This document shows, piece after piece, positions 5,810-37,618 of a stretch of 37,618 bases of DNA. Made by a program: the position numbers and the translations under genes. The notes beneath the pieces are model-generated. The model did no database searches. It was not told the DNA's origin and worked only from the letters and a program-made list of their open reading frames with translations. The DNA is from a virus (taxonomy: Duplodnaviria > Caudoviricetes): positions 1 to 37,618 of the IMG/VR virus record IMGVR_UViG_3300033407_000067; one strand, written 5' to 3'. Position 1 is the first letter of the stretch, and every line of letters starts with the position of its first letter.

Positions 5810-6187
5810 ATGAACAAACTGTCAGAGATCATCAACGTCTCAGATGCTGCGGACTGGGTGCCGATCGCGCTCTATACGCAGTTCACCGGATTCGGCGTCA
5901 TCGTGGACGCCGACGACGGGGAGGGTGTCACTGTCCAGCTGCGTAAAGCCACCAGCTCGGCTGGTGCTAACGCGGCGGACCATGGCGATGCTGTCACCGT
6001 GTCCTCAACCGACACAAACGTGACAGTTACCGCTATGACCTCCGCGTTCGCCGGGGACCTCGGCGAAACGGCAGGCGGCGTCGCGTATACCCACGTGTCC
6101 TGCACCATCACCGCAGCGGGCTCGCCCGCACCGGGTGAGACTACCTATGGCGGAGTGATTCGGTCTGATGGCCGGTTCAGCGAGTGA
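5810..6187 (+). CDS. Probable capsid decoration/accessory protein
   Basis: 125 aa, beta-rich and Thr/Ala/Gly-rich, AGGAG RBS, directly after the major capsid gene; function inferred from position. Confidence 0.55.
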   Translation: MNKLSEIINVSDAADWVPIALYTQFTGFGVIVDADDGEGVTVQLRKATSSAGANAADHGDAVTVSSTDTNVTVTAMTSAFAGDLGETAGGVAYTHVSCTITAAGSPAPGETTYGGVIRSDGRFSE

Positions 6188-6953
6188 CGACCGCTACACG
6201 GTACGGAGACCGTTTCTCGATCGGCGCACCGGGCTAACTCTGCCCGCGGGTGCGCCGTTTGTCGACCACACCCGCTACGCGCAGATGCTGCGTGACGCGG
6301 GGATAATCGACCCAGCGACGGTCCCGCCCGCCCGCCCGCAGCTTGATATTTTCCCACCAGACCGCTGGGTCGACGACACCGTCGCGATCATCGCTGGGGG
6401 GGCCAGTCTCAAATCCGAAAAACATCTGCCCCTGCTCGACGGCGTCAGCACCATCGTGGTTAATGACGCGTATCGGCTAAAACCAGATGCGGACATTTTA
6501 TACGCTGCGGACTACGCCTGGTGGGAGCACCATGGGTACGTGCCCGAGTTCGGCGGGCAGCGCTGGACGCAGCACCGCGGCACGACGGAGTGGGCCGCAC
6601 GGGCGCGGGAGCGGGGGTTATTCGTGGTCGAGTCCCGGATGGATTGCACGAGTCTGTCGATGGACCCGGCAGTCATACACACCGGGGCGAACTCCGCGTT
6701 TCAGGCGCTCAATTTAGCGGTGCTCGGCGGTGCTCGGCGCGTCCTCCTGCTCGGTGTCGATCTCAAGGGGCCACATTGGTTCGGGGACCACCCGACTGGG
6801 CTCAACCGCACCAGCCCGTACCCGGTGTTCAGGGCCTCGTTTGAGGCCGTAGCGCCGCAGCTCGCGGAAATTGGCGTCGAGGTTGTAAACTGCTCGAGGA
6901 GCTCGGCCCTGCAGTGTTTTCCGAAAATGACGCTCCGCGCCGCACTCAAATGA
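6168..6953 (+). CDS. Maf/DUF115/sialyltransferase-like Rossmann protein with small N-terminal domain
   Basis: VAIIAGGASL, IVVNDAY, DILYAAD..WW, GANSAFQALNLA...GARRVLLLGVD. Confidence 0.65.
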   Translation: MAGSASDDRYTVRRPFLDRRTGLTLPAGAPFVDHTRYAQMLRDAGIIDPATVPPARPQLDIFPPDRWVDDTVAIIAGGASLKSEKHLPLLDGVSTIVVNDAYRLKPDADILYAADYAWWEHHGYVPEFGGQRWTQHRGTTEWAARARERGLFVVESRMDCTSLSMDPAVIHTGANSAFQALNLAVLGGARRVLLLGVDLKGPHWFGDHPTGLNRTSPYPVFRASFEAVAPQLAEIGVEVVNCSRSSALQCFPKMTLRAALK

Positions 6954-7597
6954 CCGTCGAGTACCTCCCCGTCGCGCATCACCACGAGTCTGTCATCATT
7001 GTCGGCAACGCCCCCTCGGCGCGCCCCCTCACTACGCTCGCGTGTCCGGAGGCATCAGCGGTCATCGCGGTCAATGGCGCGGTTGAGTGGCTGCCGCGAG
7101 CGGACTACTGGTTTACGCTAGACCCTGACACGCGCAATCGCCGACGGATGCGGGAGCAGCGCCCAGGCACGTACTACTACGCAGCTGTGCCCCCCGAGTT
7201 CGGGCAGCGCGACGCACGGCTGCCGGTATGGCGGATGCCCCCCGAACCGCGTGTGCACTGGCTGCGACGCCGCATCGGATCCGGACCGCTATCCAGCCGA
7301 CGCGGGCTATCAGTGGACCCCGCGGCGGTCAACACGGGGAACTCAGCCTATGGTGCCCTGGGCCTGGCTTTGCATATGGGCGCCCGCCGCGTCGCGCTGT
7401 TCGGCGTGCAGGCGGACGGGGACGGGCGGATAACGGGCGGTCGTCCGGGCGACCTGGCGCATCTGCCGGAGCTGTTCGCTAGCGCGTTGCCCCAACTGCA
7501 CATCCGTGGTATTGATGTCGTAATCGCGGGCAAGTCACGAATCGACGGTTTCCCGCGCATGGGTGTTGAGGAGGCCCTCCGATGGGTTGCAGGATAG
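6950..7597 (+). CDS. Second Maf/DUF115/sialyltransferase-like protein
   Basis: VIIVGNAPS (cf. GNGPS of GT42 sialyltransferases), IAVNGA, DYWFTLDP, TGNSAYGALGLA..MGARRVALFGV; ATGA-coupled to the upstream paralog. Confidence 0.62.
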   Translation: MTVEYLPVAHHHESVIIVGNAPSARPLTTLACPEASAVIAVNGAVEWLPRADYWFTLDPDTRNRRRMREQRPGTYYYAAVPPEFGQRDARLPVWRMPPEPRVHWLRRRIGSGPLSSRRGLSVDPAAVNTGNSAYGALGLALHMGARRVALFGVQADGDGRITGGRPGDLAHLPELFASALPQLHIRGIDVVIAGKSRIDGFPRMGVEEALRWVAG

Positions 7598-8229
7598 GAT
7601 CGCGACTGGTGCAGACGACCGCACCAGCAGCTGACGTCATGACCCTCGCCGAGGCGCGGGCGCAGTGTCGAGTCGTGCCATACGGATCTCCCGTGGCGCA
7701 CGACGACGACGACCTGATTACGCGGCTGATCGCAGTCGTGACGGACGAACTGGATGGTATCGATGGGTGGCTCAACCGAGCGCTGATCAACCGCACGTTG
7801 CAGTACGCCCTGGACGGGTTCCCGCCGTGCAGCAACCGCATATACCTCCCCCTGACGTCCCCGACGACGGATGACGCCGCCACGCCGATCAGCTCAGTCG
7901 TGTATACGGACTCGAACGGTGACGCGCAGACGCTGGTCGAGGATACCGATTTTATTGTGGAAAAACGCAACGACCCAATATACATCGAGCCCGTCTACGG
8001 CAAATCCTGGCCCGCAATCCGGGCCGGAACGAACGCGGTGACGATCACGTACACCGCCGGGTATGGCGCCGCGGCGTCAGACATCCCGGAGGCGATCCGT
8101 AGCTATATGTTCGTGCGGCTCGGGCAGCTGCATGAATTCCGCGAGCTGGTAGTCGCGGGGGTGACGGTTGCTGAGGTCCCGTTCCTGCGCGACAGCCTGG
8201 AAAACAAACGCGGCCGGAGGCCCTGGTGA
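7582..8229 (+). CDS. Head-tail connector (gp6 / phiE125 gp8-like adaptor)
   Basis: TLAEARAQCRV...DDDLI..LI, RALI, V.ITYTAGYG.....IPEAIR; exact start uncertain. Confidence 0.88.
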   Translation: MGCRIGSRLVQTTAPAADVMTLAEARAQCRVVPYGSPVAHDDDDLITRLIAVVTDELDGIDGWLNRALINRTLQYALDGFPPCSNRIYLPLTSPTTDDAATPISSVVYTDSNGDAQTLVEDTDFIVEKRNDPIYIEPVYGKSWPAIRAGTNAVTITYTAGYGAAASDIPEAIRSYMFVRLGQLHEFRELVVAGVTVAEVPFLRDSLENKRGRRPW

Positions 8230-9026
8230 TGGAGTCAGTAGCCCGCATCTTCGTCGGCTGTGCGCCGAATCGGGAGGACGCCGAATCACAGGCAGTACTC
8301 GAGTACTCGATCCGTAAACATGCTAGCTGCCCCGTGGTGATCACGTGGATGAAACTGCGTCGCGATGATCCGATTTATGATGGCTGGCGGACCGAAAACT
8401 GGCCGACGCCGTTTTCGGGGTTTCGCTGGGCGGTGCCGGAGCTGGCCGGGTTCCGAGGCCGAGCGATCTATATGGACTCGGATGTCATCGTGCTGCGCGA
8501 CGTGGCGGAGCTGATCAACATGCCGCTCGGCGAGGGCAAACTGCTCGCCGCAAAATCCGCTCGGCGCCTGTGCGTGTCGTTATGGGACTGCGACCGAGCT
8601 GCCGCGCTGGTGCCTCGGATCGAGGACCAGAAACGGAGCCCCGATACGCACCTGATGATGCAGACGAAAATGCGCGGCAGCGCGCACGTGGTGCAACCGT
8701 TCGTCGGCAGCAACTGGAATAACCTCGACGGCGAGCCCAGCGAGCTGCCTGTCGGGGCGCTGCACTATACGTCTATGCCACACCAGCCCCACGTACCCCG
8801 CGCTCGTGCCCGCCTGGCACGATCAGGCTGGAAACACTGGTTTGACGGCGCCGCGAAACCGCACTGGAACACAGCGGTTGTAGAGCTGTTCGAGCAGATG
8901 CTCGCGGAGGCGATTGAGGCCGGGCACACCCCGGAGTCGTACTGCGCAGATCCGATCTACGGGGACTATCGCAAACGGTCGCTGGCCGCAATGAATGGTG
9001 CGGTACCGCACTGGGGGAGGTCATAA
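8226..9026 (+). CDS. GT-A glycosyltransferase (GT8-like)
   Basis: RIFVG...VLEYSIRKHAS, TPFSGFRWAVP, RAIYMDSD (DxD), WNNLD, LHYT. Confidence 0.82.
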   Translation: MMESVARIFVGCAPNREDAESQAVLEYSIRKHASCPVVITWMKLRRDDPIYDGWRTENWPTPFSGFRWAVPELAGFRGRAIYMDSDVIVLRDVAELINMPLGEGKLLAAKSARRLCVSLWDCDRAAALVPRIEDQKRSPDTHLMMQTKMRGSAHVVQPFVGSNWNNLDGEPSELPVGALHYTSMPHQPHVPRARARLARSGWKHWFDGAAKPHWNTAVVELFEQMLAEAIEAGHTPESYCADPIYGDYRKRSLAAMNGAVPHWGRS

Positions 9027-9676
9027 TGGTTGCGGTTGCGTGTGTGTGGGTCGGGACCGGGTATGGTGTCGAGTACGTCCAGCGGCTGCGCAACATGGTG
9101 CGACGGCATCTGCGATTAGAGCACCGGTTCATATGCCTGACGGATAAACCCGAAACGCACATCGACGGCGTCGATTTTGTGGACATCCGCCACCACAAAT
9201 GGCCGGGCTGGTGGTCAAAAATGGCGCTGTTCGATCCGGCCCTGCGGGGCATGTCAAACTGCGTCTATTTCGATCTGGACACCGTGATCGTTGGCGACAT
9301 TACCCCGCTGTTCGACTGTCGCGATTTCGCAATCTGTGAAAATTTCACGCGGGCTGCGGGGCACCCGACGTACCCGTGCTCCTATGGCTCCTGCGTCATG
9401 TACCTGCCCCTCGGGTTTGGGCGTCGAATTTTTCAGCGGTTTGAGGCTGACGCTGACGCGTTGATGGCTCGCCACGCCCAGTACGGCGATCAGCGCCTGA
9501 TAGAGGAGTACTACCCGTTTGCCACGCGTCTACAGCGCGTTATGCCGAGAGGATTTTTTGTCGGCCGTCGTGAGTTTTCGGACGGGGTGCCACCCGACGC
9601 CAGCGTAATGGTGTTCGCGGGGCCCGTAAAACCGCATAACACGGCGCACCCGTGGGTGCAGGAGCACTGGAGATGA
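9026..9676 (+). CDS. GT-A glycosyltransferase (nucleotide-diphospho-sugar transferase)
   Basis: VACVWVG..Y..EYV.RL.NMV.RHL, FICLTD, GWWSKMALF, YFDLDTVI (DxD), GDQ, F.G..KP. Confidence 0.82.
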   Translation: MVAVACVWVGTGYGVEYVQRLRNMVRRHLRLEHRFICLTDKPETHIDGVDFVDIRHHKWPGWWSKMALFDPALRGMSNCVYFDLDTVIVGDITPLFDCRDFAICENFTRAAGHPTYPCSYGSCVMYLPLGFGRRIFQRFEADADALMARHAQYGDQRLIEEYYPFATRLQRVMPRGFFVGRREFSDGVPPDASVMVFAGPVKPHNTAHPWVQEHWR

Positions 9677-10287
9677 TTAAAAACGGGCGGCAGTTCGGGA
9701 CCAGCCTACAGGACATCCGAGCGGATCATATCGAGCGGTACCGGTTCGCCGTGCGGATCGCGGAGCAGTCCTGCGAGGATGGCCCGCCGATCGGCACGGT
9801 GCTGGACGTCGGCGCCGGGACCGGGTACGGCGCGTACCTGATGGCGCAACGCGGTTACGCGGCAACCGCAGTGGAGATCGACGCGGCCGCGCATGCGCAC
9901 GGCGAGCAGCATTTCGCCCATCCCGGCGTGCAGCGCCTCAACTGCGACGTCCGCGAGATGCTGCCGGGCGTCTACGATATGACGACGTGTTTCGAGGTGC
10001 TAGAGCACGTCGACGACCCGGTCGAGCTGCTGGGCGCTATCCAGAGCCCACGGCAGTTGTTGATCTCCTCTGTGCCGAATGAGGTGGTGGTGCCGTTTGA
10101 CGCACCGGGCACGCACCGGGACCACAAACGCCATTTCACGCCCGCCGAGTTCCAGGCGCTGCTGGCGGCGGCAGGGTACGACATTGTGGAAATGGGCAGC
10201 CAGCGCGATAAAATCGGGGTGGGGGCTCAGGTGCGTCGGGGCGATACGGGGGGCCGCACGCTAGTAGCGGTTTGCCGAGCGTTATGA
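9673..10287 (+). CDS. Class I SAM-dependent methyltransferase
   Basis: HIERYRFA, motif I VLDVGAGTGYG, FEVLEHV, SVPN, H.RHFT; type common in glycan loci; ATGA-coupled. Confidence 0.88.
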   Translation: MIKNGRQFGTSLQDIRADHIERYRFAVRIAEQSCEDGPPIGTVLDVGAGTGYGAYLMAQRGYAATAVEIDAAAHAHGEQHFAHPGVQRLNCDVREMLPGVYDMTTCFEVLEHVDDPVELLGAIQSPRQLLISSVPNEVVVPFDAPGTHRDHKRHFTPAEFQALLAAAGYDIVEMGSQRDKIGVGAQVRRGDTGGRTLVAVCRAL

Positions 10288-23412: not shown

Positions 23413-25653
23413 TCATTCTTTCCTGTACCGTTTGCCTGCCCAGCCACCCGACGCCCTGATCGGCCATCCCTCGGCCCAGCTCGGCATGACGCCCATCAAC
23501 CGCTCTAACTCCTCTACCGAACCGTACCCCTCTGGTACCTCAGCCACAATTTCGTCGTAGATGCGCAGCACCGTCGGGTAGTGGTGGTCCGCTAACCGCA
23601 GTATGGCATCGCGCAGGATGTCCCGCGCCGTCGCCTGCACGACGTTTTCGCACAGCGACCCCCCGTACGTCTCGATCCGAGTCCAGCCCCGTTCGCCCTT
23701 CGCCGGATTTTTGTTATTCGACATGTACGATATTTGCCAGTCCGTTGCACGTTTACGCGTCCCGAGATCGAGCCGCGCCTGGTGGTACGTCAACCGCCGT
23801 CCGGACGGTAGCTCTATATACATCGTGTCCGCCTCGGAAAATACCCGTACATCACGATCGGCGCCGAGCGTTATGCTAGTGCCGGGGTTGCCGATGACCG
23901 ACACCGCCGCGCCCTCCAGCCCGTACCGCTCGGGTTGCCCGTTGCGCACCTGGCCGCCCCAGAATTCCACGATATGTGGCGACGCGTCACGCCACGCCAG
24001 TACCAGCCGTCTAACCGCGTCGTCGTCGAGAGTCCCGGATTTATCAAACTGCCGCCACGCGCCGATCCAGCCGCCGAACCCGAGACCCAGCTCCGCCGGT
24101 TTGCCGATTTTCTGCCGGTCCGCGTGGTTTTCGCCGTGCTCGACCCGGTAAGCCGCGTACTCGTCGTAGCTGGTACCGGTGATCCGGGACGCCGAGCGTA
24201 GATATATATCGTCACCGCGGGCAAACGCATCGAGCCGCCACTGCTCGCCCGCCAGCGCCGCGGTTACGACCGCCTCGATCGCGGTATAGTCGCTACTGAT
24301 AAACTGGTGCCCCGGCGCGGCGATAAACAGCCCTCGGATGCAGCCCGCGATCGTCAGCAGCGCATCGCCGAAAAACTGCTCGACCAGGTCCAGATCGCCG
24401 AGCGCCATGAGCCGAATCGCGTGGTCCACCGCCTCGACGCTCCACGATCGCTCCACGGCGAACGCCGCGTCGGTGTCACACCAGGGGCACCGAGGGCGAC
24501 GGTGGTAGTACGGGCGCGAGCAACACTCGCACCATAGCAACCGCGGCCCATTTCTCGGCATATTGAGGGGCTGCGGCCCAGTACCGGTGTCGCGGCCCGT
24601 CCGTGCCCCGTGGTAAATCGTCAGATCGTGCAGGCGCCCATCGTCAGCGGTCTGCGCCCGGATAGCGTACAGTTTTTTGACACTGGCGGACCCGATCAGC
24701 TGGCGGATCTCCAGAGCGCGGCGGCACTGCGGCGGCAGATCGTCCCGAGCCAAGTAAGACTCGATGTGCTCGGCGTCGAGCGAGGTAACCCCCGCGCCAT
24801 TTGCGAGCAGCCATCCGGTGAGTTGCTGAATCTCAGACGCCTTTATGCCCGCGGTGATCAGTGCCAACTCGCTGTTGTACCGTGCGAACGCCTGCTCCAT
24901 GATCGCAATGCAGTAATCCACGGCGGGGATGTCGATGCCCACGCCGCGGGCGTTCGACAGCAAATCGTACTGCCAGAACCGCAGCTCCTGCTCGCACAGG
25001 TCTGGTATCCGCGTGGACGCCTCGTGCTCCGTGATGACATCCGTGTCGCAGTAATCGATAAACGGTGCGGCCCGGTCCGGGTGGTCCGCCATCCGGTTAC
25101 GGACCGCACCGCCGTTGCTTTTCGTGGGGTTGACAGGCACGGAGAAAAATTTGATCAGTGCGTCCCCGGCCTTGTCCTTCCTCTTGGCCAGACCCAGCGC
25201 GTCACCGAGCAGGCCCAGTGCGCCCGGCAGACAGTGCGCCCGCGCCTTCGCAGCGGAGCACCGCATCTGGTCGAGGCGCAGTTCGGGCCAGCCCAGTTTA
25301 ACAGCGCAGACGTACGTCCAGATATACCACTCGAATAGCGCGTTGTGCGCCTCGACCAGACCGCCGCCGCCGCCGCCGCGAACGTGCGCGAACAGGGGGT
25401 CCAGCACGTCCATGGGCTGACCCGGCTGCCAGCGGTATACCCAGCCCGCGGGGCCTCGGTACGAAACGGTCAGCACCTCGGTTAGCGGGTGGCGAGCGTA
25501 CTTAAACGCCCCCACAGCGAATAGCCCTCGCTTCTGAGCGTTCAGGCCGTGCGGCGCACGCCATTTCTGGGCGGCGGCGTCCCACTCGAACCCCGCGGGA
25601 CTGTACGTCTCGAAATCGAGCGTTACGACTGAGTGGGACGCCGCCGCCATCAC
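23413..25653 (-). CDS. DNA polymerase family A (APSE-like) with 3'-5' exonuclease
   Basis: ExoI DFETYS, AHNALFE, YC.TDV; HGARTGR, motif A DYTAIEA, motif B RQKIGKPAELGLGFGG, ENVVQATARD, motif C IYDEIV. Confidence 0.93.
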   Translation of the reverse strand: MMAAASHSVVTLDFETYSPAGFEWDAAAQKWRAPHGLNAQKRGLFAVGAFKYARHPLTEVLTVSYRGPAGWVYRWQPGQPMDVLDPLFAHVRGGGGGGLVEAHNALFEWYIWTYVCAVKLGWPELRLDQMRCSAAKARAHCLPGALGLLGDALGLAKRKDKAGDALIKFFSVPVNPTKSNGGAVRNRMADHPDRAAPFIDYCDTDVITEHEASTRIPDLCEQELRFWQYDLLSNARGVGIDIPAVDYCIAIMEQAFARYNSELALITAGIKASEIQQLTGWLLANGAGVTSLDAEHIESYLARDDLPPQCRRALEIRQLIGSASVKKLYAIRAQTADDGRLHDLTIYHGARTGRDTGTGPQPLNMPRNGPRLLWCECCSRPYYHRRPRCPWCDTDAAFAVERSWSVEAVDHAIRLMALGDLDLVEQFFGDALLTIAGCIRGLFIAAPGHQFISSDYTAIEAVVTAALAGEQWRLDAFARGDDIYLRSASRITGTSYDEYAAYRVEHGENHADRQKIGKPAELGLGFGGWIGAWRQFDKSGTLDDDAVRRLVLAWRDASPHIVEFWGGQVRNGQPERYGLEGAAVSVIGNPGTSITLGADRDVRVFSEADTMYIELPSGRRLTYHQARLDLGTRKRATDWQISYMSNNKNPAKGERGWTRIETYGGSLCENVVQATARDILRDAILRLADHHYPTVLRIYDEIVAEVPEGYGSVEELERLMGVMPSWAEGWPIRASGGWAGKRYRKE

Positions 25654-26648
25654 GCCTCCACAATCCCGCGCTGCACCAGCAACTCGTCAGTCCAGCCCAG
25701 CTGGATCAGCTGGTCGTAGGTGAGCCCGTTGGCCTTGTCCGTCAGCCGCGGTGCTGCCGGTGCAGTGACGGGCGGTGCTGCCGGGGGCGCCATATAGGAC
25801 GTATTCGGCACGGGCGGTGCTGCCGGTGCGGTGACGGGCGGTGCTGCCAGTGCTGCCGGTGCGGTGACGGGCGGTGCTGCCGGTGCTGCCGGTGCTGCCG
25901 GGGGCGCCATATAGGACGTATTCGGCACGGGCGGTGCTGCCGGTGCGGTGACGGGCGGTGCTGCCAGTGCTGCCGGTGCGGTGACGGGCGGTGCTGCCGG
26001 TGCTGCCGGTGCTGCCGGTGCTGCGGTTGCGCCCGGTGGCAACTGGCCCGGGCCGCCTGAAAAAGCGTCCGCCGCGCTCGGGCCGAGCACGATCTCCTCC
26101 CCGTGGCCCGACAGCTCGACCAGATCCAGATTGAGGTACAGCCCCGGTTTTGACGGCTCATTATTACCAACAACGCTACCCGCGACCCGGACGTAATACC
26201 CGAGGCGCAGCAGATGCGGATCAGTGATCTGCTCGTGCGGCTGGTAGTGCCCAGCGGGGAAACAACGCGGTGCAAAACCAGATGACAGCCGGACGACCCA
26301 GTGGCCAGCGAAACCCGGTTTCGCGGCGTTGGATTTGCCGGTTTGGTCGACGCCGTCGCCATCCACGATTTTCCATGCAAACTGTGGGTTTACACATGTC
26401 GTCGCGCCCCCCGGAAACAGCGCGGGGAAGGACGACTGCGCGACGCGGACCAGGGTGGCACGAAACTCCTCGAACGCCCGGTCGTCTTTGCGGAACGCCA
26501 CGGCGATGAAATATTGGGGGTTCGGCTGACCTGCATTCGGACCGGTTTTAATCACGCGGGGGTTACCCTGCATATCGGTCGTCTGTGGCTCAAAACAGGA
26601 TCCCTGCACCAGACGACCTACGGGGGTTATAAAACGTTCACTCGCCAT
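25650..26648 (-). CDS. ssDNA-binding protein (DUF2815/gp2.5-like) with Pro/Ala linker and small C-terminal domain
   Basis: TPVGRLVQG, FAWKIVDGDG, GYYVRV, GLYLNL; between nuclease and polymerase as in APSE-like modules. Confidence 0.72.
   Translation of the reverse strand: MASERFITPVGRLVQGSCFEPQTTDMQGNPRVIKTGPNAGQPNPQYFIAVAFRKDDRAFEEFRATLVRVAQSSFPALFPGGATTCVNPQFAWKIVDGDGVDQTGKSNAAKPGFAGHWVVRLSSGFAPRCFPAGHYQPHEQITDPHLLRLGYYVRVAGSVVGNNEPSKPGLYLNLDLVELSGHGEEIVLGPSAADAFSGGPGQLPPGATAAPAAPAAPAAPPVTAPAALAAPPVTAPAAPPVPNTSYMAPPAAPAAPAAPPVTAPAALAAPPVTAPAAPPVPNTSYMAPPAAPPVTAPAAPRLTDKANGLTYDQLIQLGWTDELLVQRGIVEA
25748..26024 (-). repeat. Nested coding repeats: 9-bp units (ggtgctgcc) inside a 117-bp tandem duplication
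   Basis: CATATAGGACGTATTCGGCAC at 25791 and 25908; encodes the 39-aa unit APPAAPAAPAAPPVTAPAALAAPPVTAPAAPPVPNTSYM. Confidence 0.9.
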
Positions 26649-27729
26649 TTTCAAATACCTCTCGGGTTATTTTGTCGTTTCCTATCATCAGTTTCACGGC
26701 GCCGGGTATCGACTCATAAAACGGTTTCAGCACGTCAGCAGGAACGGTTTTCTGCGCGAGGGCCTGCGCTACAGTCAGCGCCGCAGGCGGTTTACTGAGA
26801 TCCGCGCCCAGCAGTTTACCGGTCGAGATAATATCTGCATCGGTCATTTTCCATTTTTTCGATCCGCGCCCGCGGCCTAGGTAGCAATACTCCAGCGTCG
26901 CGCCCCCGGCTAGTAGGTTTTCGGCTCGCGCCTTCAGTTCGGCAATATAATAGCCCGTCAATTCCTCCTGCTCGGTTAATAGTCTCAGCGCCCTACCGAG
27001 GTATTCGTCGGGTATCTCGTGGGGCGCCGCGGGCATTATCTCGTGCGCCGAGGCGGCCGCGACTCTCAGCGCCGCGGGGCACCGGGTAATCGCCCGGCAC
27101 CGTTTACACCATGGTCCCGTCCGGCAGTCACCTGACCGCTCCGCATCCTCGATCGCCGCACGGATCGTATCAAAATACCCGCGCAGGTCCGAGAGTCGCA
27201 CAGACCAGACACGGATCGGCCCGTCTCTATGGACTCCACGGGGCTGTACGATATGCAGCCGGACGCGCCACACCTGGTCGTCAAACTCGGTAATGCTACG
27301 CGTCAGTAGGTACGCGTAGCACAGGAGCTGCCGGTTTTCGAACACCTCGACCGGCCCGAACCCAAATTTGAAATCAAACACGTCTAGGATCATTTCGGTG
27401 CGATCGATCGTGTATGCGTCTATCGTGCCACCCCAGCCGTTCACCTCTCGGCGCTGCTCAACAGCGGGGTTAACGCCTCGCTGCGCTGCGATCTGCCCGA
27501 CATACTCGACGTACGACCGGGCCGCGACGATCATCTCCTGCGATACGTCGTCGGGGAACACGGTGTGCCCGCGAAACATGTTCTCAGCGATGGCGTGCGC
27601 TCGCGTGCCCTCCTGCGCCTCCGGGCCGGACTCCTCGGCGGGCAGTGCGGCGTTCAGTGTCGCCCATCCGGCGCAGTGGATCCACTGCTCAGCGCTACTA
27701 GGGCGGATCAGCTCAGCTACCGATCGCAT
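26638..27729 (-). CDS. Cas4-like PD-(D/E)XK exonuclease (DUF2800)
   Basis: PSSA..WI.C, EGTRAH, GTIDA, DFKFG, QL..YA, IVQPR, C-terminal WCKRC...RC cluster. Confidence 0.85.
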   Translation of the reverse strand: MRSVAELIRPSSAEQWIHCAGWATLNAALPAEESGPEAQEGTRAHAIAENMFRGHTVFPDDVSQEMIVAARSYVEYVGQIAAQRGVNPAVEQRREVNGWGGTIDAYTIDRTEMILDVFDFKFGFGPVEVFENRQLLCYAYLLTRSITEFDDQVWRVRLHIVQPRGVHRDGPIRVWSVRLSDLRGYFDTIRAAIEDAERSGDCRTGPWCKRCRAITRCPAALRVAAASAHEIMPAAPHEIPDEYLGRALRLLTEQEELTGYYIAELKARAENLLAGGATLEYCYLGRGRGSKKWKMTDADIISTGKLLGADLSKPPAALTVAQALAQKTVPADVLKPFYESIPGAVKLMIGNDKITREVFENGE

Positions 27730-33984: not shown

Positions 33985-34281
33985 ATGAAAACCGCAATAT
34001 GTGGGGTGATACTCGGGTTACTGCTACTGCTACTGCTGCCGGGCTGCGCAACGGACGGTGCGCTAACGGTGCGCCCCGAATCGCCCTTGGCCGACGGCTA
34101 CCAGATCGGAGACCTGGCACGGGAGGCGCTGCTGCTGCAGGACGACGTATGCCGGCGCAGCGACCCCGTATCCCGTGTGCTGCTGCTACGCCTGCTGGGC
34201 GATGCGGGCCTCGAGCACGACGGGCAGAATATCTGCGAGATCGATATTATCCGTTTGCTGCTGGATGATGCCTCGGAATGA
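33985..34281 (+). CDS. Lipoprotein
   Basis: MK + hydrophobic h-region + lipobox-like LPG-C. Confidence 0.72.
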   Translation: MKTAICGVILGLLLLLLLPGCATDGALTVRPESPLADGYQIGDLAREALLLQDDVCRRSDPVSRVLLLRLLGDAGLEHDGQNICEIDIIRLLLDDASE

Positions 34282-34352: not shown

Positions 34353-35000
34353 TCAGATGTCGTGTGCCCTCCCCACGGCCAGCGAGATAACGTACCGCGG
34401 CATACCATGGGACTCCCAGCAGTTAGCCCCGTATGCAGGCAGCAGAACGGGCGCCACCGTCCGACCCCCGAAGCCAGCCGTACGTATCCAGTCGTTTTTG
34501 ATCCTATAGCTAGTGGTCCGCAGGCCCAGCCCCGCATAGTGCGCCCGGCTGCCCCCGTAGTGCCCTGCGGGCTCGGCGAATAGTACCACCTCGGGGACCT
34601 CGAGCCCGCGCAGGTGCAGGTACCTTGCCAGATGGGGCGCTATCGCCGCCCCCATACTATGCCCTGTGACTACATAGGACCACCGGGGGTCGAGGTCCCG
34701 GACGAACGCGTCTACCCAGAGATACGCGCCGCGCATGAAACCACGGTGGGCTCGGACGCCCGTGACCGGGCATCGCCACGGAATAGCGCACAGGTCGCGC
34801 ACTATGTCCACAAGATTCGACAGGCGCCCGCCTACCTCGGTGCCTCGGACCGCTAGGACGCGGACATCCGGGTGGTACGCGGGGGAGTAAACGCTCACCT
34901 CCACCTCCCGCCGGGACAATACGCTGGGGCCGCGGTCCCCGTACGCCCGGCGGCAACACTGTGCGAGGTAAACGTGGGACAACCCAGGCGTCCGTTTCAT
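34353..35000 (-). CDS. Class 3 lipase / alpha-beta hydrolase
   Basis: LAVRGTE oxyanion motif, AHRGF, VTGHSMGAA nucleophile elbow, NDWI (Asp), SHG (His). Confidence 0.88.
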   Translation of the reverse strand: MKRTPGLSHVYLAQCCRRAYGDRGPSVLSRREVEVSVYSPAYHPDVRVLAVRGTEVGGRLSNLVDIVRDLCAIPWRCPVTGVRAHRGFMRGAYLWVDAFVRDLDPRWSYVVTGHSMGAAIAPHLARYLHLRGLEVPEVVLFAEPAGHYGGSRAHYAGLGLRTTSYRIKNDWIRTAGFGGRTVAPVLLPAYGANCWESHGMPRYVISLAVGRAHDI

Positions 35001-35611
35001 TCCGCCACCTCCTCACAATGTTTTATTTGCTCAGCGCTCAGATGCTCCGCTGCGTACATCAGTGCGGCCCTGGGCCACTGCTGGGCGCAGTCGTCGAGGC
35101 GCTCGGCGGTCAGACGATCCGCCGCGTATATCAGTGCGTACCAGGGCCCCTGCCGGGCGCAGTCGTCGAGGCGCTCGGCGGTCAGACGATCCGCCGCGTA
35201 CTGCAGTGCAACCGTGGGCTCCCGGCGGGCGCAGTCGTCGAGGCGCTCAGCGGTCAGACGATCCGCCGCGTATACCAGTGCGGCCGTGGGCTCCCGGTGG
35301 GCGCAGGCGTCGAGACGCTCAGCGCTCAGTCGATCCGCTGCGTACTGCAGTGCGTACCCCGGCTCCTGCCGGGCGCAGTCGTCGAGGCGCTCAGCGGTCA
35401 GATACCCCGCTGCGTATCTCAGTGCAACCGCGGGCTCCCGGTGGGCGCAGGCGTCGAGGTGCGTCGCGTCGATCAGCTCCGGAAAATGTGCCGCACCCCA
35501 CAGATAATGCTCAGGCCGTAACCGGAGCAGATCCCCGGCGCAGGCGAGGTAGTCCCCCAGGCCGTAGCCGCAGACACCCAGCGCCCGCAGTTGTTCGATC
35601 GTTGGTTTCAT
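34997..35611 (-). CDS. 24-aa helical repeat protein A (6 repeats; DUF4116-like)
   Basis: N-cap MKPTIEQLRALG.C, repeats CAxxxPxxALxYAADRL[TS]AERLD[DA], C-cap EQIKHC; ATGA-coupled at both ends. Confidence 0.85.
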   Translation of the reverse strand: MKPTIEQLRALGVCGYGLGDYLACAGDLLRLRPEHYLWGAAHFPELIDATHLDACAHREPAVALRYAAGYLTAERLDDCARQEPGYALQYAADRLSAERLDACAHREPTAALVYAADRLTAERLDDCARREPTVALQYAADRLTAERLDDCARQGPWYALIYAADRLTAERLDDCAQQWPRAALMYAAEHLSAEQIKHCEEVAE

Positions 35612-36147
35612 ACTGCTACCCCGCAATGTTTTATTTGCTCAGCGGTCAGACGATCCGCCGCGTATATCAGTGCGGCCCTGGGCCACTGCCGGGCGCAGTC
35701 GTCGAGGCGCTCAGCGGTTAGATACCCCGCCGCATACTGCAGTGCAGCCCTAGGCCACTGCCGGGCGCAGTCGTCGAGACGCTCAGCGCTCAGTCGATCC
35801 GCCGCGTATACCAGTGCGGCCCAGGGCCCCTGCCGGGCGCAGTCGTCGAGGCGCTCAGCGCTCAGTCGATCCGCTGCGTACTGCAGTGCGTACCCCGGCT
35901 CCTGCCGGGCGCAGTCGTCGAGGCGCTCAGCGGTCAGATACCCCGCTGCGTATCTCAGTGCGTACCCTGGCTCCCGGTGGGCGCAGGCGTCGAGGTGCGT
36001 CGCGTCGATCAGCTCCGGAAAATGTGTCGCACCCCGCAGATAATGCTCAGGCCGTAACCGGAGCAGATCCCCGGCGCAGGCGCGGTAGTCCTCCAGCCCG
36101 TACCCACAGGCGCCCAGCGCCCGCAGTTGTTCGATCGTTGGTTTCAT
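35608..36147 (-). CDS. 24-aa helical repeat protein B (5 repeats)
   Basis: Paralog of A (5 differences in the first 56 aa) with a different cassette order; ATGA-coupled. Confidence 0.85.
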   Translation of the reverse strand: MKPTIEQLRALGACGYGLEDYRACAGDLLRLRPEHYLRGATHFPELIDATHLDACAHREPGYALRYAAGYLTAERLDDCARQEPGYALQYAADRLSAERLDDCARQGPWAALVYAADRLSAERLDDCARQWPRAALQYAAGYLTAERLDDCARQWPRAALIYAADRLTAEQIKHCGVAV

Positions 36148-36632
36148 ACTGCTACCTCACAAGAGAGTATCCATTCGGCTACACGGGCGGCGCGAGCGGG
36201 ACAGTCGACCCGTGCGTACCGGCTATCGAGTATCTCGACGGCGGCACGGTCCCACGCGTGTAGATTCACCGCTGTCAGCATCCGCCGAAACCCGCGCAGG
36301 CGGGCATAACCCAGCTGAAACGACATGTTGATGATCGCCCGGCGGGTGGGGAATGGCATACCCCCGAGGCCGGGGAGCAGTTTCACCGCGTCCGCGATCG
36401 CCGCGTCCAGGGAGCGGTGAAGCAGCGTCTCGACGATCGCGTCGCTGAAATGCCCGCCATTATCGCACAGAGCGCGCATTACCCCGGCGGGCAGGCCGTG
36501 AGCCTCCAGATTCCATCCGACGCCCACCGTCCAGATGCCTCGACTGTCGCGATACGGTTTCAGGCGTACCCCCTCATCGCGGTAGAGGTCATCATTGATG
36601 ACCTCCCGCTCCCGTGGCGTTAGTACACTCAT
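36144..36632 (-). CDS. Lysozyme/endolysin, GH24 T4-like
   Basis: Catalytic E-x8-D-x5-T (DEGVRLKPYRDSRGIWTVGVG), INMSFQLG, F.RML.A, DSRYA...P.RA.R. Confidence 0.92.
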   Translation of the reverse strand: MSVLTPREREVINDDLYRDEGVRLKPYRDSRGIWTVGVGWNLEAHGLPAGVMRALCDNGGHFSDAIVETLLHRSLDAAIADAVKLLPGLGGMPFPTRRAIINMSFQLGYARLRGFRRMLTAVNLHAWDRAAVEILDSRYARVDCPARAARVAEWILSCEVAV

Positions 36633-36814
36633 TTTACGCTCCCCCGTCCCAGTCCACCCGCCCGCCGGATCATACGATCGATGCGGCTCGCGATCACCTC
36701 GGCCTCGAGGCGGTTAGTCGTCATGCGCCCTCCGGGAAGCGCCCAAACGCGTTGTGTGACGGCGGGGACGGTCGCCTCCCCTACATGTATGTCGTGTGCG
36801 CTCAGGTCAAACAT
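36629..36814 (-). CDS. Small protein resembling DUF1317 (lambda Orf60a-like)
   Basis: HDI.VG..T.P....W.LPGG....NRLEA...A..ID pattern recognised by eye. Confidence 0.55.
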   Translation of the reverse strand: MFDLSAHDIHVGEATVPAVTQRVWALPGGRMTTNRLEAEVIASRIDRMIRRAGGLGRGSVK

Positions 36815-37616
36815 TCTGGACCCCCCCGCAATGTTCTATTTGTTCAGCGGTCAGACGATCCGCCGCATACTGCAGTGCGTACCCCGGCTCCTGCCGGGCG
36901 CAGTCGTCGAGACGCTCAGCGCTCAGTCGATCCGCCGCATACTGCAGTGCGACCCAGGGCCCCTGCCGGGCGCAGGCGTCGAGGCGCTCGGCGGTCAGAC
37001 GATCCGCCGCGTACTGCAGTGCGACCGTGGGCTCCCGGTGGGCGCAGGCGTCGAGGCGCTCGGCGGTCAGACGATCCGCCGCGTACTGCAGTGCGACCGT
37101 GGGCTCCCGGTGGGCGCAGGCGTCGAGGCGCTCAGCGCTCAGACGATCCGCCGCATACCGCAGTGCGACCCAGGGCCTCCGCCGGGCGCAGGCGTCGAGG
37201 CGCTCCGCGGTCAGTCGATCCGCCGCATACTGCAGTGCGACCCAGGGCCCCTGCCGGGCGCAGGCGTCGAGGCGCTCAGCGGTCAGACGATCCGCCGCAT
37301 ACTGCAGTGCAACCGTGGGCTCCCGGTGGGCGCAGGCGTCGAGGCGCTCGGCGGTCAGACGATCCGCCGCATACTGCAGTGCGTACCCCGGCTCCTGCCG
37401 GGCGCAGGCGTCGAGGCGCTCGGCGGTCAGACGATCCGCCGCGTACTGCAGTGCAACCGTGGGCTCCCGGTGGGCGCAGGCGTCGAGGCGCTCAGCGGTC
37501 AGACGATCCGCCGCATACTGCAGTGCGTACCCCGGCTCCTGCCGGGCGCAGTCGTCGAGACGCTCAGCGCTCAGTCGATCCGCCGCATACTGCAGTGCGA
37601 CCCAGGGCCCCTGCCG
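36807..37616 (-). CDS. 24-aa repeat protein C, 5'-truncated by the window edge (at least 11 repeats; missing from ORF track)
   Basis: Stop-free frame RQGPWVALQYAADRLSAERLDDCA...RQEPGYALQYAADRLTAEQIEHCGGVQNV*; stop overlaps the next ATG. Confidence 0.85.
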   Translation of the reverse strand, partial: RQGPWVALQYAADRLSAERLDDCARQEPGYALQYAADRLTAERLDACAHREPTVALQYAADRLTAERLDACARQEPGYALQYAADRLTAERLDACAHREPTVALQYAADRLTAERLDACARQGPWVALQYAADRLTAERLDACARRRPWVALRYAADRLSAERLDACAHREPTVALQYAADRLTAERLDACAHREPTVALQYAADRLTAERLDACARQGPWVALQYAADRLSAERLDDCARQEPGYALQYAADRLTAEQIEHCGGVQNV

Positions 37617-37618
37617 GG
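36851..37618 (-). repeat. 72-bp tandem repeat array (coding)
   Basis: tcag[at]cgatccgccgc[ag]tac[tc]gcagtgc recurs every 72 bp; the same unit occurs at about 35040-35460 and 35640-36000. Confidence 0.95.

What the first reader, a model, noticed from the sequence alone, without database searches (positions are those of the whole stretch)
34997..37618. Three paralogous 24-aa repeat proteins written in a small reusable cassette alphabet (TALE/PPR-like modular logic)
Seen: at least 22 units of 72 bp with a near-constant scaffold AL-x-YAADRL[TS]AERLD[DA]CA and a 6-residue variable block around an invariant Pro. Gene A (N to C): HREPAV, RQEPGY, HREPTA, RREPTV, RQGPWY, QQWPRA. Gene B: HREPGY, RQEPGY, RQGPWA, RQWPRA, RQWPRA. 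Gene C (partial): RQGPWV, RQEPGY, HREPTV, RQEPGY, HREPTV, RQGPWV, RRRPWV, HREPTV, HREPTV, RQGPWV, RQEPGY. A second variable site (AL-x-Y) takes Q, R, V, I or M. The same few cassettes recur in different orders, with apparent hybrids (HREPGY, RQGPWY). N- and C-caps are shared where visible. Inference: helical solenoids whose binding face is reprogrammed by recombination between units, a diversifying binder family (anti-defence, host-protein or nucleic-acid recognition) that needs no reverse transcriptase.
Basis: partly seen in the sequence, partly recalled or inferred. Interest (0 to 1): 0.8.

Follow-up and report, generated by a model that had tools for sequence, protein, structure and literature searches.

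The report
Phage quartet of reshuffled repeat binders
A soil phage carries four related genes for small proteins built from 24-residue repeats with a nearly fixed framework, a few variable positions predicted to lie on one helix face, and signs of recombination between repeats; they likely act as a renewable set of protein binders against the host, but no target is known.

Summary
In detail: 22 units of 72 bp in three genes, as listed. A sister contig (L020) adds a fourth paralogue (D, 6 units) and the start of C, giving 31 units (6/14/5/6). They lie in one coupled operon with a lysozyme and a lipase, behind a sigma-70-like promoter. AlphaFold gives a confident helical solenoid. A profile links the unit to DUF4116, though these proteins miss the Pfam cut-off. 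The family is large (646 clusters) and unnamed. Variation concentrates at unit positions 3, 5, 6 and 9. Units are recombinant mosaics (p=0.001) and there is no reverse transcriptase. The framework is under purifying selection. Excess amino-acid change at the four sites is clear in six young arrays pooled (ratio 3.0), but not in this phage alone (1.5, p=0.15). The TALE/PPR reading is not supported: the proteins are acidic and show no small residue code. Only 2 of 17 cassettes recur across genes. A second strain showed no new units. Best reading: early-made, recombination-diversified protein binders, probably anti-defence, working like fungal high-internal-conservation repeats. The target is untested. 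This scan noted similar binder panels, with other repeats, in other genomes.

The parts
34997..35611 (-). Gene A, 204 aa: 56-aa cap, 6 units, short C-cap
   Evidence: starts at an ATGA overlap with the stop of B
35608..36147 (-). Gene B, 179 aa: cap, 5 units, C-cap
   Evidence: ATGA overlap with the lysozyme stop
36807..37618 (-). Gene C, last 11 units. Its cap and 3 further units lie on L020:2403-2859 (likely 14 units in all). Gene D (203 aa, 6 units) lies just upstream on L020:1795-2406
36144..36632 (-). Phage lysozyme (PF00959, phrog_7) inside the paralogue cluster; its last codons equal the junction that precedes the cap of D
36629..36814 (-). 61-aa DUF1317-like ORF between C and the lysozyme
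   Evidence: 23.2 bits, cut-off 22.3
34353..35000 (-). Lipase_3-type esterase, coupled to the stop of A
35452..35620 (-). Cap and ribosome-binding junction of A; the four caps differ by only 1-9 of 168 nt
   Evidence: collapsed cap contig at depth 38 against about 10 in run X2
37492..37618 (.). 127-bp exact repeat of 36844-36970 at which the assembly breaks
25650..27729 (-). ssDNA-binding/annealing protein and exonuclease: candidate recombination machinery (role inferred, not tested)

Best explanation
The four genes encode proteins predicted to fold as small helical solenoids whose fixed framework likely displays a variable binding stripe, which recombination between repeats likely renews, and the phage likely makes them early to bind host proteins, most probably defence proteins. 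Shown by sequence: four intact coupled paralogues, near-identical caps, 31 units, variation focused on positions 3, 5, 6 and 9, and mosaic units. Predicted: each unit is a helix, a one-residue turn, a Pro-started second helix and a short turn. Positions 5, 6, 9, 10 and 13 point one way and stack into a stripe, while Ala7, Leu8 and Ala11 pack the core. Inferred: unequal crossover and gene conversion between 76-87% identical units (perhaps helped by the phage's exonuclease and annealing protein) change unit number and mix half-cassettes, and selection keeps new surfaces. Also inferred: early expression from a sigma-70-like promoter near the genome end, and a protein target. Step confidences: solenoid 0.95, recombination 0.9, protein binder under selection 0.7, anti-defence or host-takeover role 0.5.
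For: Fold: pLDDT 87 for A alone; 95, pTM 0.87 for D with 20 sequences. Helix-wheel angles 0/100/40/140/80 degrees for positions 5/6/9/10/13 against 200/300/240 for 7/8/11. This is the spacing of alphaRep variable positions 18, 19, 22, 23, 26 (PMC3754942, passages), which bind proteins on the concave face (PMC6362204, passages). Family-wide, positions 9, 6, 3 and 5 differ most often between adjacent units (0.81, 0.78, 0.75, 0.71 of 161 pairs); position 5 is 26% Trp and position 10 is 92% aromatic (the pattern required Y/F/H/C/W at 10). Recombination: 90 of 136 site pairs fail the four-gamete test, fewer among close sites, permutation p=0.0012; 96 of 103 units have their nearest neighbour in their own phage. 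Selection: framework ratio 0.28 here; four-site ratio 3.0 in six young arrays pooled, p=7e-7; L013 has 7 amino-acid changes at these sites and no silent change. Context: TTGACG-16-TATACT upstream of D; coupled stops and starts. Homologue neighbours are RecT/RecE, DNA methylases, a Lar-like protein and replication genes, with no head, tail or lysis family as best hit (139 same-strand ORFs of 17 loci). A complete primase relative lacks the family. Early strong promoters marked anti-defence genes in archaeal viruses (PMC11065993, abstract).
Against: No target, no expression data and no characterised relative. In this phage alone the four-site ratio is 1.54, p=0.15; in seven older arrays it is 1.0. 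The young/old split was made on overall identity, which can favour arrays with few silent changes, and the four sites were picked from proteins that partly overlap the loci tested. Strain X2 showed no new unit; it differs by 2 substitutions and 2 one-base indels in two flanking contigs of 1111 and 743 bp, so fast reshuffling is not shown. A lysozyme and a lipase in the same operon are odd for an early anti-defence unit. Fold matches are weak (Z 6.8-8.7, none at Foldseek E<=0.001). The one-face claim rests on helix geometry, not coordinates.
Confidence: 0.5

Rival explanations
1. Relaxed repeat churn. The proteins fold and may have one fixed generic role; surface positions merely drift while slippage and conversion reshuffle units without benefit.
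For: Four-site ratio not significant in this phage (p=0.15) and 1.0 in seven older arrays. Patchy family with no conserved neighbour in 32 loci. 67 of 156 proteins yielded one unit by the pattern. No new unit in strain X2.
Against: Ratio 3.0 in six young arrays pooled, 4 of them significant alone. Amino-acid differences at the four sites exceed those elsewhere in 16 of 16 other loci with three or more units (some loci are related). Four intact paralogues with a framework ratio of 0.28.
Confidence: 0.2
2. TALE/PUF-like nucleic-acid reader: each unit reads one base through positions 5, 6 and 9.
For: PUF domains are among the fold neighbours, and the i, i+1, i+4 spacing matches the PUF code (recalled). 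Repeats are fused to IncQ-type RepC in 5 of 58 long members and to an HTH in 1; an HNH-like tail is visible by eye in P0105.
Against: pI 5.0-5.7 and mean unit charge -0.46; 233 triplets among 314 units, so no small code; position 6 is mostly Ala or Thr. Most members have 1-6 units. The unit is 24 aa, against 33-34 with two variable residues in TALEs (PMC10392669).
Confidence: 0.12
3. Interchangeable adaptors or inhibitors for a constant phage protein: the near-identical cap plugs into a phage enzyme (or the coupled lysozyme or lipase) and the solenoid aims or restrains it.
For: Caps differ by 1-9 of 168 nt. An AC-x-x-G/A/P cap motif occurs in 82 of 136 members of 200 aa or less. The genes are translationally coupled to lysozyme and lipase.
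Against: Apart from the repeat genes, only the helicase of this phage has matches in the 32 other loci; no lysozyme or lipase does, and no other family recurs in three unrelated groups. Gene conversion alone explains the cap identity.
Confidence: 0.12
4. Targets of a diversity-generating retroelement acting in trans.
For: A few hypervariable codons in a frozen frame resemble DGR output; the records are incomplete.
Against: No RVT_1 in 10 of 10 records, nor among the four L020 ORFs scanned. Only 25 of 38 polymorphic columns include A, and 5 invariant columns are A. In L013, 3 of 5 variable face columns lack A.
Confidence: 0.02

Closest known systems
High-internal-conservation (HIC) repeats of fungal NLRs, e.g. 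Podospora HNWD WD40 domains (PMC13449251, abstract and passages read)
   Same: Near-identical repeats (Psim 0.78-0.88 here, their threshold 0.7), four hypervariable positions, repeat exchange within and between genes
   Different: Stand-alone 180-400 aa phage proteins with a 24-aa helical unit; no NACHT/NB-ARC or death domain; length polymorphism between strains not shown
DUF4116 (Pfam PF13475)
   Same: Shared AL-x-YA motif and helical solenoid; our profile retrieves PF13475 proteins in 19 of 21 long hits; two family members pass the cut-off; top viral fold neighbours
   Different: Window proteins miss the cut-off (best 19.3 against 24.9 bits); 24-aa unit with Pro4 and Cys23, against 25 aa in P0204; own N-cap; DUF4116 has no known function
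Leucine-rich repeat variant protein, PDB 1LRV (Pfam PF01816)
   Same: Best Foldseek PDB row (E 0.056); Z 7.4/rmsd 3.9/182 aligned/20% identity and Z 6.8/5.6/189/19%; 24-residue period (recalled)
   Different: No PF01816 hit and no sequence hit to 1LRV; Z is within the range of common helical arrangements
alphaRep artificial HEAT-like binders (PMC3754942, PMC6362204; passages)
   Same: Same spacing of variable positions on the second helix; Z 6.8-7.2 to 4XL5 and 7P0H
   Different: Engineered, longer unit, 5-7% identity
TAL effectors / PPR / PUF
   Same: Modular helical repeats with localised variation
   Different: Unit length, charge and lack of a small code; no Pfam hit
Flavobacterium psychrophilum LRR loci (PMC10392669, parts 1-2 of 6 read)
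   Same: Tandem paralogues with variable unit number and recombination without mobile genes
   Different: Bacterial, secreted, LRR fold, with broken fragments; here phage, no signal peptide evident, intact genes

Membership tests
DUF4116 (PF13475) | Pfam score at or above 24.9 bits | tested here: not met
   C 19.3 bits, A, B and D no hit; relatives P0084 and P0086 pass at 25.1 and 26.2
DUF4116 (PF13475) | Profile-level sequence kinship | tested here: met
   19 of 21 long hits carry PF13475; apart from P0084, which is itself a close family member, the best is E 1.8e-22. Repeats inflate such scores
DUF4116 (PF13475) | Same fold | tested here: inconclusive
   Top BFVD rows but E 0.0025 and weaker
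LRV (PF01816) | Pfam or sequence match | tested here: not met
LRV (PF01816) | Same fold | tested here: inconclusive
   Z 6.8-7.4, tied with HEAT proteins
HIC diversifying repeats | Psim at least 0.7 | tested here: met
   0.78-0.88 for the four genes (own implementation of the measure)
HIC diversifying repeats | A few hypervariable positions under diversifying selection | tested here: inconclusive
   Met for six young arrays pooled (3.0); not significant in this phage alone (1.54, p=0.15)
HIC diversifying repeats | Repeat exchange within and between genes | tested here: met
HIC diversifying repeats | Repeat-number polymorphism between strains | tested here: inconclusive
   One independent run, kept as short contigs; order and number unreadable
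NLR with HIC repeats | NACHT or NB-ARC ATPase | tested here: not met
TAL effector | 33-34 aa repeat with two variable residues | tested here: not met
   24 aa, four or more variable sites (definition in PMC10392669)
TAL effector / PUF / PPR | Sequence-specific nucleic-acid binding | not testable with these tools
   Charge argues against it
Diversity-generating retroelement | Reverse transcriptase in the genome | tested here: not met
   0 of 10 records; 9 of the 10 are under 90% complete
Diversity-generating retroelement | Adenine-specific variation | tested here: not met
Phage anti-defence protein | Rescue of phage from a defence system | not testable with these tools
   Only context: promoter, position, neighbours

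The most novel reading that the evidence does not exclude
Phages carry a natural, recombination-driven binder library, a counter-immune analogue of fungal HIC receptors. A constant cap plus a solenoid whose stripe is rewritten by swapping half-cassettes between paralogues lets one phage neutralise changing host defence proteins without reverse transcriptase. The 24-aa unit would be a very compact natural binder scaffold.
Probability: 0.3. Interest if true: 0.85.

Novelty: new variant of a known kind. Interest (0 to 1): 0.62.

Why it matters
If these are binders, they are a widespread and unnamed phage family (646 clusters at 50% identity; almost absent from cultured phages) that diversifies the way fungal immune receptors do. 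They would point to an adaptable arm of phage counter-defence and give a small natural scaffold for binder design. Four paralogues with one framework and known unit differences make the target question directly testable. If the surface only drifts, this is an ordinary expanding DUF4116-related repeat.

Tried and rejected
Pfam, PHROGs, NCBIfam and PADLOC name no family for A, B or D (D was not scanned in PHROGs). For C, PF21234 passes on summed 14-residue stretches and was rejected as spurious; three unknown-function PHROGs hit weakly. PDB sequence search with the 40-row profile gave one chance hit. Single-protein and exact-pattern scans of viral contigs found nothing; profiles were needed. Cultured phages: one weak hit with A, none with P0005; plasmids none with P0005. 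ESM Atlas: only unnamed phage clusters under 0.9. The cap resembles YdhT_N/Imm5-like N-termini at TM 0.66, under the naming bar, so it is a lead only. No RNA holder was listed. Blocks seen in runs X1 and X2 but absent from the window first looked like strain variants; compared by eye they match D and the start of C on L020, and the 'HREPWT' in my second note is unit D1. The X2 cap that looks like an A/B hybrid is the cap of C and D. Array C was laid only up to 36990. No conserved partner among neighbours. Three loci had under three units and were left out; one search used 13 arrays, dropping related or very short ones (L009, L015, L038, L042). Literature searches listed no paper on this family. 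The supplements of PMC10392669 (thousands of candidate clusters) were not seen and may include it.
Full report
Observation. The 22 units and their order are as reported, with strong 72-bp periodicity. The window is a whole linear virus record, 78% complete. It is a siphophage: terminase, portal, capsid, gene-transfer-agent-like tail, DNA polymerase A, annealing protein, exonuclease, helicase and primase. The terminase is 50-54% identical to those of Pseudomonas phages. The record breaks at a 127-bp exact repeat inside gene C.

The missing piece. A metagenome scan returned L020 (2859 bp), from the same assembly as L019, a record of the window's length. It overlaps the window end by 75 bp exactly. 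It holds gene D (cap; RRGPWT, QRSPRA, QRSPRA, RQEPTV, QRSPWY, WRSPWY) and the start of C (cap; HREPAV, RRRPWV, HREPTV), and at its far end an HNH gene. The overlap also fits a second place, but depths in run X1 favour 14 units in C. The operon reads promoter, 52-aa ORF, D, C, DUF1317-like ORF, lysozyme, B, A, lipase. Stops and starts overlap from D to the lipase, and TTGACG-16-TATACT lies at L020:1565-1592 (a consensus match only). HNH beside the small terminase suggests that this is the genome end that enters the cell first (recalled from lambda-like phages; L020 does not overlap the window start). The junction before D equals that before B, and that before C equals that before A, which suggests a duplicated two-gene block. 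Yet the caps of C and D differ by 1 nt, B by 2-3 and A by 7-9, which suggests later gene conversion.

Fold. AlphaFold gives a regular helical solenoid: pLDDT 87 for A alone and 95 for D with relatives. Numbering a unit from its first variable residue, helix A ends at 2, residue 3 is the turn and helix B starts at Pro4. Positions 5, 6, 9, 10 and 13 fall within 140 degrees; Ala7, Leu8 and Ala11 face away. This is the spacing of alphaRep variable positions (PMC3754942, passages), which bind on the concave face (PMC6362204, passages). Fold neighbours are 1LRV, HEAT/alphaRep and PUF at modest scores, and DUF4116 proteins of giant viruses.

Family. A 7-row profile found 81 proteins. A 40-row profile found 646 clusters at E<=0.001, 313 at 1e-10 and 59 at 1e-30. 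Typical short members have a cap with an Ala-Cys motif (82 of 136) and a few units. Several phages carry 2-4 paralogues (L010, L014, L021, L027, L033). Longer hits lead into DUF4116 (19 of 21). Of the 58 longer representatives scanned (out of 119 new), 5 are fused to RepC and 1 to an HTH. Same-strand neighbours within 3 kb at 17 loci are recombination, methylase, replication and unknown genes. A complete primase relative lacks the family, so it is accessory.

How it varies. In 314 distinct units, positions 9, 5, 6, 1, 13, 3 and 22 are the most diverse; 9, 6, 3 and 5 differ most between neighbours (nine positions were constrained by the extraction pattern). Here 10 of 24 positions are invariant, 7 of them with silent variation. 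Units are mosaics: 90 of 136 site pairs are incompatible, with close sites less so (p=0.0012). Units resemble their own phage's units in 96 of 103 cases. What is reused is mostly half-cassettes; only 2 of 17 whole blocks occur in more than one gene. Counting minimal changes in codons 1-18, the four sites have a ratio of 1.54 here (p=0.15), 3.0 in six young arrays pooled and 1.0 in seven older ones; the framework has 0.28, 0.52 and 0.31. These counts are uncorrected and the split may bias them upward. There is no reverse transcriptase and no adenine bias.

Other samples. Two soil runs of two studies hold the region; X1 may be the source. X2 matches A6, B3, B5, D1, D5-D6 and the first unit of C, and shows about four caps by depth. 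It differs by 2 substitutions and 2 one-base indels in the flanks, two of them at the very end of C (compared by eye). So the arrays are real, but fast reshuffling is not shown.

Mechanism. Most likely (0.5) these are early protein binders aimed at host proteins, probably defence systems, renewed by recombination and selection. The rivals are relaxed churn (0.2), a nucleic-acid reader (0.12; acidic proteins, no small code), adaptors for a constant phage protein (0.12; no shared neighbour) and a DGR target (0.02).

Known systems and novelty. It works like fungal HIC repeats (PMC13449251, passages) but is not an NLR, a TALE or a DGR target. It is a DUF4116-related branch that misses the Pfam cut-off. 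Nine literature searches listed no description. Earlier notes of this scan describe similar binder panels with other repeats in other genomes (unchecked); none matched by sequence. Verdict: real, a new variant of a known kind, interest 0.62.

Noticed in passing
L020:1056-1428: 66-nt inverted repeat (91%) with a nested 47-nt one, between two divergent sigma-70-like promoters; possible origin or regulatory switch
   Followed up: no
window 34353-35000 and 36144-36632; L020:533-904: Lysozyme and lipase sit in the paralogue operon, while a hydrophobic, holin-like ORF (phrog_1024, unknown function; holin-like by eye) lies on the opposite strand beside the HNH gene
   Followed up: partly
window 33985-34281 (+): 98-aa ORF with a hydrophobic leader and lipobox-like Cys, facing the lipase; no family hit; spanin or exclusion lipoprotein by eye
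   Followed up: no
window 6168-10287 (+): Glycosyltransferase, sialyltransferase-like and methyltransferase genes among the head and head-tail genes; possible virion glycosylation
   Followed up: no
window 25773-26018: Perfect 117-bp tandem duplication in the low-complexity tail of the ssDNA-binding protein
   Followed up: no
P0093, P0096, P0115, P0146, P0179: IncQ-type RepC fused to long degenerate arrays of this repeat; no cultured plasmid covers the fused form
   Followed up: partly
L010:41-7787: Four paralogues in a large low-GC phage, next to a peptidase and an ATPase of phrog_249
   Followed up: no
L013:5170-5645: Array with 95% identical units, no silent difference, and 5 of 6 variable columns at positions 3, 5, 6 and 9, beside RecT and exonuclease genes: the cleanest example of the pattern
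   Followed up: partly
L008:4950-5828: Degenerate member in Dolichospermum phage Dfl-JY45, the only cultured phage hit, in a region that looks plasmid-like by eye
   Followed up: no
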